Assembly: GCF_017348835.2 (NCBI RefSeq)
Contig: NZ_CP071375.1
Length of the DNA stretch: 64,000 nt
From: Escherichia coli
GTDB lineage: Bacteria; Pseudomonadota; Gammaproteobacteria; Enterobacterales; Enterobacteriaceae
Reading direction: 5' to 3' (one strand)
Of the stretch, positions 12,001 to 15,000 are shown piece after piece; the stretch's first letter is position 1; every line of letters starts with the position of its first letter. Made by a program: the position numbers.

Positions 12001-15000
12001 ACTGCTCTGGCAGCATGAGACCAGACACGCTTACAACGCGCAGGGGCTGGCGAACCGCTGTATACCGGACAGCCTGCCCGCCGTGGAATGGCTGACCTAC
12101 GGCAGCGGCTGGCTGGCAGGCATGAAACTCGGCGACACACCGCTGGTGGAGTACACCCGCGACCGCCTGTACCGGGAAACGCTGCGCAGATTCGGCCGTT
12201 ATGAACTCACCACCGCTTACACCCCTGCCGGGCAGTTACAGAGCCAGCACCTGAACAGCCTGCAGTATGACCGCGATTACACCTGGAACGACAACGGCGA
12301 ACTCATCCGCATCAGCAGCCCGCGCCATACCCGGAGTTACAGCTACAGCGACTCCGGCAGGCTGACCGGCGTTCACACCACGGCAGCGAACCTTGATATC
12401 CGCATCCCGTATGCCACGGACCCGGCAGGTAACCGCCTGCCCGACCCGGAGCTGCACCCGGACAGCACCCTCAGCATGTGGCCGGATAACCGTATCGCCC
12501 GTGACGCGCACTATCTTTACCGGTATGACCGTCACGGCAGACTGACAGAGAAAACCGACCTCATCCCGGAAGGGGTTATCCGCACGGATGATGAGCGCAC
12601 CCACCGGTACCATTACGACAGTCAGCACCGGCTGGTGTACTACACGCGGACACAATATGCAGAGCCGCTGGTCGAAAGCCGCTATCTTTACGACCCGCTG
12701 GGCCGCAGGGTGGCAAAACGGGTATGGCGACGTGAACGGGACCTGACGGGCTGGATGTCGCTGTCACGGAAACCGGAAGTGACCTGGTACGGCTGGGACG
12801 GCGACCGCCTGACCACAATACAGAACGACAGAACCCGCATCCAGACGATTTATCAGCCGGGGAGCTTCACGCCACTCATCAGGGTTGAAACCGCCACCGG
12901 TGAGCTGGCGAAAACGCAGCGCCGCAGCCTGGCGGATGCGCTTCAGCAGTCCGGCGGCGAAGACGGTGGCAGTGTGGTGTTCCCGCCGGTGCTGGTGCAG
13001 ATGCTCGACCGGCTGGAAAGTGAAATCCTGGCTGACCGGGTGAGTGAGGAAAGCCGCCGCTGGCTGGCATCGTGCGGCCTGACTGTGGAGCAGATGCAAA
13101 ACCAGATGGACCCGGTGTACACGCCGGCGCGAAAAATCCACCTGTACCACTGCGACCATCGCGGCCTGCCGCTGGCGCTTATCAGTGCGGAAGGGGCTAC
13201 AGAATGGTGCGCAGAATACGATGAATGGGGCAACCTGCTGAATGAAGAGAACCCGCATCAGCTGCAGCAGCTTATCCGCCTGCCGGGGCAGCAGTATGAT
13301 GAGGAGTCCGGCCTGTATTACAACCGCCACCGCTATTATGACCCGCTGCAGGGGAGGTATATCACTCAGGATCCGATTGGGCTGAAGGGGGGATGGAATT
13401 TTTATCAGTATCCGTTGAATCCGATAACTGATATTGACCCGTTGGGATTAGCGACCTGTTTATACAGCATAACTTTAAGTATGCTTTCATGCGTTTCAGA
13501 TACGCAAAATGATGATAACTCTTATGATGTGCTTACTATTCCTGTCGCCTCTGGTAATAATGGTAATAATATGCAATGTAAAAATAATCCTGGTTGTACA
13601 CACTTACAAAATAGAGGTCCAATACCTCAAGGGGTATGGAGCTGGAATGTTAATGGTCCTGGAGCAACCAATAGAAAACCTAATGGTATACGTTTAGTAC
13701 CGTCAGCAAATACAGAAACATATAATCGTGATGGATTTTTAACACATAGTTGTTTAAACGCTTTCGGTCCGTCTTTAGGACCTCGATTCTGTTCCGAGGG
13801 TTGTATAACTGGTTCATCTAATGACATGCAAAAATTAAATGAGTTAATATTTTCAGAGCCAGATAGCACATTAACAGTTACGGACTAAAAAATATGGCAA
13901 AGTTATTAACAATTGTATTTTTTTCTCTATTTCTGCGAGTGCAGTTACTGCAAGACAATTTCAGAGAGAGTTAGATTTGGCAGACAAAGCAATATTATGG
14001 GCACTAATATCAGCCAGTACTAAAGAGGGACGAAAAGCGTGTTCACTTAGCTATTTTGCCTGTAAGGCCGCAGAGGCTGAACTCGGACTGGCATATATGG
14101 CTGCGAATGATAACAAGGAATTTCTCACATCCTTATCTAATATAATGAGGTACAAAATAGATGCTGGACTTTCCGAATCCTATACATGCTATTTATTAAG
14201 TAAGGGAAAGATCATAAGACCATATCTGAAAAATCTAAATCCACTCCAACTTGCCGCTGATTGCATTGAAACAGTAAATAAAATAAAAGATAAGAATAAA
14301 AAAATCATTGATATAAATTCAGTTAATATTTGTAGTGATGATAAAAATATAAAATTGAGAGTTAATAGTACTATTATGGCCATTGATGATTCTATAAAAT
14401 GCATCGATGAATAATAACTTAATTTTATTTAAAAATATATTAATAAGTCACTCTCCAGGAGTTTTTTTAACTTAGTTTTATAATGAATACGATAATTAAA
14501 AGTGAAGAAGAAAATAGTTGTATACATATATTCCATGACCCTACATTGTGATCTATAGATTAAATATTTTTTAAATGTGACTGTCATCCTTCAGATAATA
14601 AAGCCATCATCGCAATAGATGGAAAAGCACTCCTGCTCTTTTTTGATTAGAGCCGTCGCAGGAGGAACAACTCATATCATCATTGCGATCTCGACAATGT
14701 ATAGTCTGATCCTTCGGCAGATCAAGACGGATAAAAAATCCAATGAGTTCACACTCATCCCGAACTTCTTAACATAATGGATATTAACGAAAAATCATCA
14801 CAGCCGATGAAATAATATGCAAAAATAATTAGTCCTTACAAGGAGCAAAGTTCCATAATCTCCCCCCTCCCCCTCAATGATCCAAATAAAGATAATGCAT
14901 CCAGCTGGTCATTCTTAGCAGCACTTTTCGCATCACCGAAACATGACTGAAATGGTCGGAGTAAACTGCCACCTGGGCGTAAATGCCGTCGGGTAAGGCA

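What the first reader, a model, noticed from the sequence alone, without database searches (positions are those of the whole stretch)
13894..14414. Immunity gene start is out of frame across a T7 homopolymer
Six nt after the rhs stop, an ATG opens MAKLLTIVFFSLFL..., which stops after 26 codons. The immunity frame is open over the same stretch and reads ...FFSISASAVTA-RQFQRELDLADKAILW.... One extra T in the T7 run at 13918-13924 would fuse them into MAKLLTIVFFFSISASA|VTARQ..., a textbook Sec signal peptide with an AXA cleavage site. So the immunity protein is probably exported, and its expression here depends on an indel-prone homopolymer: either a sequencing error, a slipped-strand switch, or a +1/-1 ribosomal frameshift.
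Basis: seen in the sequence. Interest (0 to 1): 0.65.

Follow-up and report, generated by a model that had tools for sequence, protein, structure and literature searches.

The report
Frameshifted exported Rhs immunity gene
The gene that should protect this E. coli from its own cell-wall-attacking Rhs toxin has lost one T from a run of eight. This cuts its export signal off from the rest of the protein. It is an inherited, already annotated pseudogene lesion shared by about 3,200 sequenced E. coli including K-12, not a sequencing error or a demonstrated switch.

Summary
ATG 13894 opens a 26-codon frame, and T7 lies at 13918-13924. One extra T gives a 173-aa protein with a textbook signal peptide.

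The window is the E. coli rhsA locus (selA-yibF-rhs-imm-yibH-yibI-mtlA), 4 SNPs from strain PE164. The protein is an Imm57 family member (Pfam E 1.9e-47). The upstream Rhs C-terminus is a Tlde1/LD-peptidase toxin domain, a family that is toxic in the periplasm.

Export is well supported:
- 99 of 105 distant Imm57 homologues start with signal-peptide-like N-termini.
- Six cysteines are invariant among four aligned family members.

T7 is not an assembly error. In 5,426 complete E. coli genomes, 3,225 carry T7, including K-12, and 66 carry in-frame T8. A diverged in-frame allele (C+T7) is in 316, and a sister Escherichia species has T8. T8 is therefore ancestral and T7 is a derived 1-nt deletion.

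A second homopolymer frameshift (A7 to A8) is present in about 1,000 genomes, and the cognate toxin is degraded in K-12-type loci. That pattern is decay, not programmed recoding. No frameshift-stimulating RNA structure follows the run.

Published reporter data suggest about 1-5% leaky rescue by RNA-polymerase slippage at T7, but nothing shows this is used.

RefSeq already annotates the identical sequence as "Imm57 family immunity protein, frameshifted".

Interest is low.

The parts
9710..13888 (+). Full-length rhs gene (1392 codons, PAAR-like N-terminus, Rhs core, C-terminal toxin). In this window it is interrupted by an in-frame TGA at 11450-11452.
   Evidence: ORFs 9710-11452 and 11459-13888 are in the same frame; translation. 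PE164 and F2_81 have TTA (Leu) at this codon and an intact 1392-aa 'RHS element core protein' WP_096220420.1.
13571..13837 (+). Tlde1 / LD-peptidase-type toxin domain at the Rhs C-terminus, the cognate toxin of the immunity gene.
   Evidence: Pfam PF10908 Tlde1_dom, E 8.9e-7, residues 118-206 of the last 222 aa. Orphan copies are named 'tlde1 domain-containing protein' by PGAP. The sequence has H-x15-S-E-G-C-I against the published motif HXX14-17-(S/T)HGCh.
13894..13974 (+). 26-codon ORF, the stranded signal-peptide-coding start of the immunity gene. It runs out of frame after the T7 run and ends at TAG.
   Evidence: It is identical to residues 1-10 of the intact T8 protein before the run.
13918..13924 (+). 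T7 homopolymer, the site of the 1-nt deletion relative to the ancestral in-frame T8.
   Evidence: The in-frame outgroups are Escherichia sp. MOD1-EC7003 with T8 and the diverged allele GTG-C-T7.
13944..14414 (+). Mature-protein-coding part of the Imm57 immunity gene. It runs from Val after the predicted ASA|V cleavage site to the stop at 14412-14414. It is in a different frame from ATG 13894.
   Evidence: Alignment with intact homologues.
13980..14273 (+). Pfam Imm57 domain (residues 30-127 of the restored protein).
   Evidence: PF15596, E 1.9e-47, model positions 2-100 of 100.
13977..14414 (+). TTG-initiated 145-aa ORF. It is the only conventional ORF left for the Imm57 body, has no signal peptide, and starts 2 nt after the TAG of the 26-codon ORF. 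The K-12 fragment yibV uses the same start.
   Evidence: Protein clusters starting MADKAILW... (P0013, P0024).
14298..14304 (+). A7 homopolymer inside the immunity gene, a second frameshift hot spot. It is in frame here and is A8 in K-12 and about 1,000 other genomes.

Best explanation
The gene at 13894-14414 is the immunity gene (Imm57 family) for the Tlde1/LD-peptidase toxin domain at the C-terminus of the adjacent Rhs protein. In its ancestral form (T8) it encodes a 173-aa pre-protein with a Sec signal peptide, MAKLLTIVFFFSISASA|VTA. The mature, cysteine-rich domain would then work in the periplasm, where this toxin family attacks peptidoglycan.

Here one T has been lost from the run (T8 to T7) by replication slippage. 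Ribosomes starting at ATG 13894 therefore make only a 26-residue peptide, and the Imm57 body has lost its export signal. The gene is a pseudogene: little or no periplasmic immunity protein is made.

The lesion is inherited, not an assembly artefact. It is the modal state of this locus in E. coli. It sits in what is in most strains the last, decaying orphan module of the rhsA array. In the K-12-type loci read here, toxin stops and frameshifts accompany it, and a second frameshift at an A run is present in about 30% of carriers.

In the window's lineage (PE164, F2_81 and this strain), recombination has placed this formerly orphan toxin tip on the full-length rhs. The immunity gene was already frameshifted by then.

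Shown:
- the sequence anatomy;
- family membership of both proteins;
- the allele frequencies;
- the in-frame ancestral state;
- the family-wide signal peptides.

Inferred:
- periplasmic location and function;
- loss of protection;
- the order of events.

A residue of about 1-5% full-length product from non-programmed RNA-polymerase slippage on the T7 run is expected by analogy with published reporters. It has not been shown for this gene.
For: **Anatomy:**

**Family membership**
- Imm57 PF15596, E 1.9e-47.
- Tlde1_dom PF10908, E 8.9e-7.
- Zhang et al. 2012 link Tox-LD-peptidase with Imm57 and RHS (PMC3482391).

**Export**
- 99 of 105 full-length homologues at 22-50% identity start with signal-peptide-like N-termini. 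They mostly have 6-8 Cys.
- Six Cys are invariant in the alignment of four family members.
- Tlde1 is toxic only when sent to the periplasm, and its immunity proteins carry Sec signals or TM segments.

**The lesion is real and inherited**
- Exact-allele counts in 5,426 complete genomes: T7 3208+17, T8 38+28, T6 20, T9 0.
- K-12 MG1655 has T7.
- The window differs from PE164 by 4 SNPs and no homopolymer indel over about 64 kb.

**The in-frame state is ancestral**
- Escherichia sp. MOD1-EC7003 has T8.
- The 88%-identical allele at the same locus is in frame, in 316 genomes.
- A 50-52% identical homologue has the same architecture.

**Decay**
- An A8 second frameshift is in 1,000 genomes, against 2,147 with A7.
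- All four T7/T8 x A7/A8 combinations occur.
- The upstream toxin is riddled with stops and frameshifts in K-12-type loci.
- PGAP annotates the gene as 'frameshifted' in identical sequences.

**No recoding signal:** downstream RNA folds less stably than shuffles.

**Order of events:** strain 88-3493 shares the window's allele-specific SNPs and T7, but there the toxin tip is still an orphan.
Against: - T7 is nearly fixed (98%) while the 145-codon body is still open in about 64% of carriers. One could read this as maintenance. However, nucleotide diversity in the gene is under 1%, so openness is expected even without selection. The 8 nonsynonymous to 4-5 synonymous polymorphisms in 14 alleles are uninformative.
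- PE164 and F2_81 keep an intact full-length Rhs carrying this toxin next to the T7 allele. This would be awkward if they fire it at siblings with no immunity at all.
- E. coli RNA polymerase does slip detectably on T7. It restored about 5% of in-frame reporter signal, with 0.75% U insertions (PMC6260861). The allele is therefore probably not a strict null.
- No expression, localisation or read-level data could be examined here.
Confidence: 0.8

Rival explanations
1. Leaky recoding that matters. RNA-polymerase slippage (U7 to U8 in the mRNA), or -1 P-site slippage of tRNA-Phe on the U run, restores the frame in a few percent of products. That small amount of exported Imm57 is enough for self-protection. 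T7 would then be a low-expression allele rather than a dead gene.
For: - E. coli RNAP needs at least T7 to slip. T7/T8 runs restored about 5%/10% of in-frame GFP, and a T7 tract showed 0.75% U insertion by NGS (PMC6260861).
- After a -1 slip on UUU(13921-13923) the product is identical to the T8 protein (sequence).
- PE164 and F2_81 keep an intact Rhs-Tlde1 next to T7.
- Precedent in a T6SS gene: tssM with an A11 run in Citrobacter (PMC4256274).
Against: - The run is at the bare threshold for slippage. Selection against slippery runs is evident at 9 nt in most genomes (PMC1088944).
- No stimulatory structure follows the run, and the heptamer is non-canonical.
- About 30% of carriers have a further frameshift at the A run, and others have further lesions. 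This would not be tolerated if the product were needed.
- The cognate toxin is dead in the K-12-type loci read here.
- Immunity proteins normally act by stoichiometric binding to the toxin (general knowledge).
Confidence: 0.1
2. A slipped-strand (phase-variable) ON/OFF switch. The T7/T8 tract toggles at the DNA level and lets lineages turn periplasmic immunity on or off.
For: - Both lengths occur on near-identical backgrounds. ETEC6335 (T7) and PS10-3 / DSM 103246 (T8) are identical across the gene apart from the run, and each differs from the window at five positions in the 700 nt upstream.
- T8 occurs on both the AGG and the AAG backgrounds.
- In the window's own AAG sub-haplotype the split is 17 T7 to 28 T8.
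Against: - The length spectrum on the main background is T6 20 / T7 3208 / T8 38 / T9 0. T8 is about as rare as the useless T6.
- The T7 run of the diverged in-frame allele kept its length in the 30 rows sampled from its 316 genomes.
- Seven to eight bases is short compared with known contingency tracts (general knowledge).
- Some ±1 calls may be long-read assembly errors.
- A second, independent frameshift site (A7/A8) points to decay rather than a designed switch.
Confidence: 0.05
3. A signal-less Imm57 is made and is functional. It would start at TTG 13977, possibly coupled to termination of the 26-codon ORF 2 nt upstream, or at ATT 13905. It would act in the cytoplasm or insert by a weak N-terminal segment.
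For: - The TTG ORF keeps the whole Pfam domain, and a GAGAG stretch lies about 7 nt upstream (sequence).
- Database records exist for an ATT-initiated 169-aa form, MNNCIFFSISASA... (P0001, a cluster of 788 member sequences), and for TTG-initiated fragments such as K-12 YibV.
Against: - The family is exported almost without exception.
- Six invariant Cys suggest periplasmic disulfides.
- The toxin family acts in the periplasm.
- TTG removes the conserved R-E-h-x-h-A-E start of the mature domain.
- The hydrophobic core of the ATT form is marginal, best 10-mer Kyte-Doolittle score 2.0 against 2.8 for the intact form. ATT is a very poor start codon (general knowledge).
Confidence: 0.04
4. Sequencing or assembly error in this window: the true genome has T8.
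For: Homopolymers are the classic site of indel errors. A few sporadic T6 and T8 calls inside otherwise T7 clones, for example two O157:H7 genomes with T6, may be such errors.
Against: - The identical T7 allele is found in two independent complete genomes of the same lineage, from China and Australia.
- In all, T7 is in 3,225 genomes, including many K-12 assemblies.
- The window has no homopolymer indel against PE164 in about 64 kb.
Confidence: 0.01

Closest known systems
Imm57 immunity proteins paired with Tox-LD-peptidase / Tlde1 (DUF2778) toxins on Rhs proteins (Zhang et al. 2012, PMC3482391; Sibinelli-Sousa et al. 2020, bioRxiv 10.1101/2020.02.18.954545)
   Same: - Same two Pfam families, in the same order: toxin tip, then the immunity gene 5 nt downstream.
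- The toxin sits on an Rhs protein.
- The immunity protein has an N-terminal export signal.
- The toxin family is toxic in the periplasm.
   Different: - Here the immunity gene is split by a 1-nt deletion between the signal peptide and the domain.
- The toxin motif reads SEGCI rather than (S/T)HGCh.
- The experimentally studied Tlde1 immunity proteins (Tldi1/DUF2195) belong to a different family from Imm57.
- No Imm57 protein has been tested experimentally in the papers I could read.
E. coli K-12 rhsA-locus remnants yibV and flanking pseudogenes (RefSeq 'Imm57 family immunity protein, frameshifted')
   Same: Same locus, and the same T7 lesion. Over the 79-nt test stretch around the run there is one substitution, AAG to AGG (K3R). 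Across the whole gene the alignment adds only three more substitutions, one of them in the stop codon. PGAP gives it the same pseudogene annotation.
   Different: - K-12 carries an additional A8 frameshift, so its annotated product YibV is a 111-aa fragment.
- The K-12 upstream toxin is degraded.
- In the window the toxin tip is intact and joined to a full-length rhs.
Orphan Rhs toxin/immunity modules activated by recombination with the main rhs gene (Koskiniemi et al. 2014, PMC3967940)
   Same: In related strains this toxin tip is the last orphan of an array (rhsC/ybfB - rhsB'/yhhH - yibA - Tlde1 tip - Imm57). In the window lineage it sits on the full-length rhs with the intervening modules gone.
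   Different: - In the Salmonella case the orphan immunity gene is functional and the recombinants gain a weapon.
- Here the immunity gene was already frameshifted.
- In this window the rhs gene itself carries a nonsense codon.
Transcriptional frameshifting at homopolymers that rescues interrupted genes (Citrobacter rodentium tssM A11, PMC4256274; non-programmed slippage by E. coli RNAP, PMC6260861)
   Same: An out-of-frame gene in a T6SS-related system, whose frame would be restored by inserting one nucleotide at an A/T run. T7 is the shortest run at which E. coli RNAP slippage was detected.
   Different: - The run is 7 rather than 9-11.
- There is no evidence that both products are needed.
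- Population data show further inactivating lesions.
- Slippage here is an expectation, not an observation.

Membership tests
Imm57 immunity protein family (Pfam PF15596) | Significant match to the family HMM over its full length | tested here: met
   E 1.9e-47, model positions 2-100 of 100, residues 30-127 of the restored protein. 180 homologues at E<=1e-3 in the representative library.
Imm57 immunity protein family (Pfam PF15596) | Encoded immediately downstream of a Tox-LD-peptidase (Tlde1/DUF2778) or related polymorphic-toxin C-terminus | tested here: met
   Tlde1_dom PF10908, E 8.9e-7, in the last about 100 residues of the Rhs; the gene starts 5 nt after its stop. The association is stated in PMC3482391.
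Imm57 immunity protein family (Pfam PF15596) | Intact reading frame giving signal peptide plus domain (the typical 170-190 aa architecture) | tested here: not met
   In the window the signal-peptide codons (13894-13923) and the domain are in different frames because of T7. T8 alleles meet this feature. The window copy is a pseudogene of a family member.
Sec-type cleavable signal peptide | Positively charged n-region, 7-15 residue hydrophobic h-region, small residues at -3/-1 (AXA) | tested here: met
   Restored sequence M-A-K / LLTIVFFFSIS / ASA|V. Best 10-mer Kyte-Doolittle score 2.77. The same pattern is found in 99 of 105 homologues. This is a rule-based test only; SignalP was not available.
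Sec-type cleavable signal peptide | Demonstrated export and cleavage | not testable with these tools
   Needs PhoA or Bla fusions, or N-terminal sequencing.
Programmed -1 ribosomal frameshift site | X_XXY_YYZ slippery heptamer in the zero frame | tested here: not met
   The zero frame reads GUA_UUU_UUU_UCU, so the heptamer is A_UUU_UUU (X=A does not match UU). Only single-tRNA P-site slippage on UUU is possible.
Programmed -1 ribosomal frameshift site | Stimulatory downstream stem-loop or pseudoknot (or upstream SD-like element) | tested here: not met
   13925-14004 folds at -9.3 kcal/mol against a shuffle mean of -14.7, z +1.87. The 161-nt context gives z +2.24.
Programmed -1 ribosomal frameshift site | Conservation of the shift site together with integrity of the downstream frame | tested here: not met
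   T7 is conserved, but 1,000 of about 3,370 carriers have an A8 frameshift downstream and others have further truncations. The ancestral and outgroup alleles are simply in frame.
Phase-variable contingency locus (homopolymer slipped-strand switch) | Tract length varies among close relatives, with ON and OFF states both common | tested here: inconclusive
   Both states exist on near-identical backgrounds, and the AAG sub-haplotype splits 17 to 28. Overall, however, the spectrum is T6 20 / T7 3208 / T8 38 / T9 0. The diverged allele's T7 run kept its length in the 30 rows sampled from its 316 genomes.
Utilised transcriptional slippage site | A/T run long enough for efficient slippage (typically 9 or more in bacteria) | tested here: not met
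   The run is 7. Baranov et al. 2005 find selection evident at 9 nt. E. coli RNAP slippage at T7 is detectable but low.
Orphan Rhs toxin/immunity module | Toxin tip with a remnant of the rhs core, lacking the N-terminal delivery region, downstream of a full-length rhs | tested here: not met
   This is true in most strains. In the window the tip is on the full-length rhs, which has an internal TGA. The window copy is therefore a former orphan, now at the main position.

The most novel reading that the evidence does not exclude
The T7 allele is not dead but a deliberately weak allele. Non-programmed RNA-polymerase slippage, or P-site tRNA-Phe slippage on the U7 run, continually supplies a few percent of full-length, exported Imm57. 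That trickle would be enough to protect against Tlde1-type Rhs toxins. This would explain why T7 rather than a larger deletion is the near-universal state in E. coli, and why PE164-type strains tolerate an intact Rhs-Tlde1 next to it.
Probability: 0.07. Interest if true: 0.45.

Novelty: already known. Interest (0 to 1): 0.17.

Why it matters
It matters little beyond careful annotation.

- It shows that the E. coli "yibV-type" remnant at the rhsA locus is the frameshifted remains of an exported Imm57 immunity protein for a peptidoglycan-targeting Rhs toxin.
- It shows that the one-base lesion is ancient and nearly fixed in the species rather than an assembly error.
- It identifies a small pig-associated lineage in which a formerly orphan toxin tip was moved onto the main rhs gene although its immunity gene was already broken.

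If the weak-recoding reading were true, it would be a natural example of immunity dosage set by a threshold-length homopolymer. The evidence here does not favour that.

Tried and rejected
- **NCBIfam scan** of the restored immunity protein and the toxin tip: no family.
- **PDB sequence search** with both: nothing significant. No structural comparison was attempted, and structure prediction was not run because it would not bear on the frameshift question.
- **Promoter/terminator scan** of 13400-14900: counts were at the shuffle expectation and uninformative.
- **RNA folding** 3' of the run, looking for a frameshift stimulator: less stable than shuffles.
- **Genome-contig scan** for orthologues in other species: only one locus came back, Escherichia sp. 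MOD1-EC7003. The outgroup evidence is therefore thin, though consistent with the diverged E. coli allele.
- **dN/dS-style count** on 14 alleles: 8 nonsynonymous against 4-5 synonymous sites, too few to discriminate.
- **Literature search for yibU and yibV:** only list mentions, with no functional or expression data.
- **Sequencing error** was rejected on population and whole-window evidence.
- **Canonical -1 PRF** was rejected on the heptamer, the lack of structure and the downstream lesions.
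Full report
**1. What is in the sequence**

The region was read directly.
- The upstream long ORF ends at TAA 13886-13888.
- After a 5-nt spacer, ATG 13894 opens MAKLLTIVFFSLFLRVQLLQDNFRES, which stops at TAG 13972-13974 after 26 sense codons.
- The T run is exactly seven bases, 13918-13924.
- The frame that is -1 relative to the ATG is open from 13887 to the stop at 14412-14414. It reads ...CIFFSISASAVTARQFQRELDLADKAILW....
- Its first conventional start is TTG 13977, giving 145 aa.
- Adding one T in silico gives a 173-aa ORF, MAKLLTIVFFFSISASAVTARQ....

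**2. Where we are**

A 1.1-kb query matches 3,726 of 5,426 complete E. coli genomes. The context is selA-yibF-rhs-imm-yibH-yibI-mtlADR, which is the rhsA locus.

Window 7600-20700 is identical to strain PE164 (pig, China) except for one base. Across the roughly 64 kb that align with PE164 the differences are few:
- four SNPs;
- one IS3 insertion present only in PE164, with a 6-nt gap at that junction;
- no homopolymer indel.

A second independent genome, F2_81 (pig, Australia), has the same allele. In all of these, and in K-12 MG1655, NCBI's PGAP annotates the gene as "Imm57 family immunity protein, frameshifted", a pseudogene.

**3. What the two proteins are**

- *Immunity protein.* The restored protein matches Pfam Imm57 (PF15596) over the whole model, E 1.9e-47, residues 30-127.
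- *Toxin.* The last about 100 residues of the Rhs match the Tlde1 domain (PF10908, formerly DUF2778), E 8.9e-7. PGAP names orphan copies "tlde1 domain-containing protein".
- *Literature on the pairing.* Zhang et al. 2012 list Tox-LD-peptidase with RHS repeats and with Imm16/Imm57 as its immunity proteins (PMC3482391).
- *Literature on the site of action.* Sibinelli-Sousa et al. showed the founding member is toxic only when directed to the periplasm. Its immunity proteins carry Sec signals or TM segments, and some family members are Rhs fusions (bioRxiv 10.1101/2020.02.18.954545).
- *Catalytic motif.* The published motif is HXX14-17-(S/T)HGCh (PMC9638812). The window's toxin has H-x15-S-E-G-C-I. 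The catalytic Cys and first His candidates are present, and the second His is Glu. I did not test activity.

**4. Is the immunity protein exported?**

The restored N-terminus follows the classical n/h/c rule: MAK / LLTIVFFFSIS / ASA|V.

The stronger evidence is comparative.
- A search of 1.84 billion representative proteins found 180 relatives.
- Of 105 full-length ones (160-200 aa, 22-50% identity), 99 begin with a basic residue or two, then a hydrophobic stretch with a Kyte-Doolittle 10-mer score of at least 2.0. By eye most then have a small-residue site, and then the conserved R-E-h-x-h-A-E start of the mature domain. They mostly have 6-8 cysteines.
- In the alignment of the restored protein with its 88% and 48-52% relatives, six Cys are invariant, including two beyond the Pfam domain.

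This fits a disulfide-bonded periplasmic protein.

**5. Is T7 an error?**

No. I counted exact 78-81-nt alleles in the 5,426 genomes.

| Background around the run | Run length | Genomes |
|---|---|---|
| K-12-type, codon 3 = AGG | T6 | 20 |
| K-12-type, codon 3 = AGG | T7 | 3,208 |
| K-12-type, codon 3 = AGG | T8 | 38 |
| K-12-type, codon 3 = AGG | T9 | 0 |
| Window-type, codon 3 = AAG | T7 | 17 |
| Window-type, codon 3 = AAG | T8 | 28 |

K-12 MG1655 has T7. All T8 loci that I opened are annotated intact at 173 aa, except OkiPb01695. That strain has T8 but a frameshift at the second run.

**6. Which state is ancestral?**

Three in-frame references exist.
- Escherichia sp. MOD1-EC7003 has T8 and a 94%-identical protein.
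- A diverged allele (88% aa identity) sits at the same locus in 316 genomes. It reads GTG CTT TTT TTC, that is C followed by T7, in frame. All 30 sampled rows kept the in-frame 80-nt length.
- A 50-52% identical homologue has the same length and architecture.

The stretch between ATTGT and CTCT is 9 nt in all in-frame alleles and 8 nt in the window. T7 here is therefore a derived 1-nt deletion.

**7. Decay or device?**

Several observations favour decay.
- A second homopolymer inside the gene, A7 at 14298-14304, is A8 in K-12 and about 1,000 genomes, against 2,147 with A7. The K-12 fragment ending ...KNKKNH is the 111-aa product I take to be YibV.
- Other truncated forms are abundant in the protein database.
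- All four T7/T8 x A7/A8 combinations occur among sampled loci.
- In K-12-type loci the toxin tip upstream is full of stops and frameshifts.
- The 80 nt after the run fold less stably than shuffled controls, z +1.87. The 161-nt context gives z +2.24.
- The zero-frame heptamer is A_UUU_UUU, not X_XXY_YYZ.
- The T6 (20) and T8 (38) counts around a dominant T7 look like symmetric slippage noise. Some may be assembly error.
- The in-frame T7 run of the diverged allele kept its length in the sampled rows.

Polymorphism in 14 alleles gives 8 nonsynonymous against 4-5 synonymous sites. That is too few to test selection.

**8. What argues the other way?**

- E. coli RNA polymerase slips detectably on T runs of at least 7. 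T7/T8 runs restored about 5%/10% of in-frame GFP, and a T7 tract showed 0.75% U insertions (PMC6260861). A -1 slip of tRNA-Phe on UUU 13921-13923 would also yield exactly the T8 product. The allele is therefore probably leaky at the percent level.
- PE164 and F2_81 carry an intact full-length Rhs with this toxin next to the T7 allele.
- However, a periplasm-acting toxin does not harm its producer's cytoplasm. Immunity is needed only against delivery by siblings. Without knowing T6SS activity in these strains, this is not evidence for functional recoding.

**9. History of the window's lineage (inferred)**

- In other strains with the AAG allele, the Tlde1 tip is the last orphan of an array: rhsC/ybfB - rhsB'/yhhH - yibA - tip - Imm57.
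- In the window, PE164 and F2_81 it sits on the full-length rhs and the intervening modules are gone. This is the kind of main/orphan recombination described in Salmonella (PMC3967940).
- Strain 88-3493 shares the window's allele-specific SNPs and T7 but still has the orphan arrangement. The frameshift therefore predates the fusion.
- In the window itself, the rhs gene has a TGA at 11450-11452 where PE164 has TTA. Here toxin delivery is probably abolished as well. A causal link between the two lesions is speculation.

**10. Verdict**

The T7 run marks an inherited, nearly fixed -1 frameshift in an Imm57 immunity gene, already annotated as such in RefSeq. It is not a sequencing error and not a demonstrated switch or programmed frameshift. 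The novelty rating is "already known", and interest is low.

Noticed in passing
window 11450-11452: In-frame TGA in the 1392-codon rhs gene. PE164 and F2_81 have TTA (Leu) and an intact protein, and this is the only difference from PE164 in 13.1 kb. The toxin-bearing Rhs is truncated at codon 581 in the very strain whose immunity gene is frameshifted.
   Followed up: partly
window 14298-14304: A7 run inside the immunity gene is a second frameshift hot spot. It is A8 in K-12 (giving the 111-aa fragment I take to be YibV) and in about 1,000 complete genomes, and A7 in 2,147. OkiPb01695 has T8 but A8.
   Followed up: yes
window 9710-13888 versus loci L002, L003, L018, L019: The Tlde1 toxin tip is the last orphan of an rhs array in related strains, but is joined to the full-length rhs in the window, PE164 and F2_81. 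This implies a deletion by recombination between rhs core sequences.
   Followed up: partly
window 22931-27778 (junction near 24584-24586): A 1615-aa YadA-like/ESPR trimeric autotransporter gene is intact in the window. In PE164 it is split by an IS3-family insertion.
   Followed up: partly
window 2632; 51525 and 51742: These are the only other differences from PE164 across the roughly 64 kb that align: one SNP in aldB and two SNPs 217 bp apart in waaY (rfaY).
   Followed up: no
window 13905 (ATT) and protein cluster P0001: Public databases hold a 169-aa 'Imm57 family immunity protein' beginning MNNCIFFSISASA... (a cluster of 788 member sequences). An ATT start was called in the immunity frame to avoid the frameshift. 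This is an annotation workaround rather than evidence of a real start.
   Followed up: partly
window 13700-13888 versus L004 (K-12): Divergence between the K-12-type and window-type loci is high in the 5' part of the toxin tip and falls to near zero over its last about 45 codons and the whole immunity gene. This suggests a recombination breakpoint inside the toxin-coding region.
   Followed up: no
NZ_CP096837.1 (strain PS10-3), about 133.9 kb and about 296.0 kb: This genome carries two copies of the Imm57 gene start, one AAG+T8 at the rhsA locus and one AGG+T8 elsewhere. The module is therefore not confined to one rhs locus.
   Followed up: no
window 13770-13800 (toxin motif): The Tlde1-type tip reads H-x15-S-E-G-C-I where the published catalytic motif is HXX14-17-(S/T)HGCh. 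The second His is Glu. Whether this variant is active is unknown.
   Followed up: no
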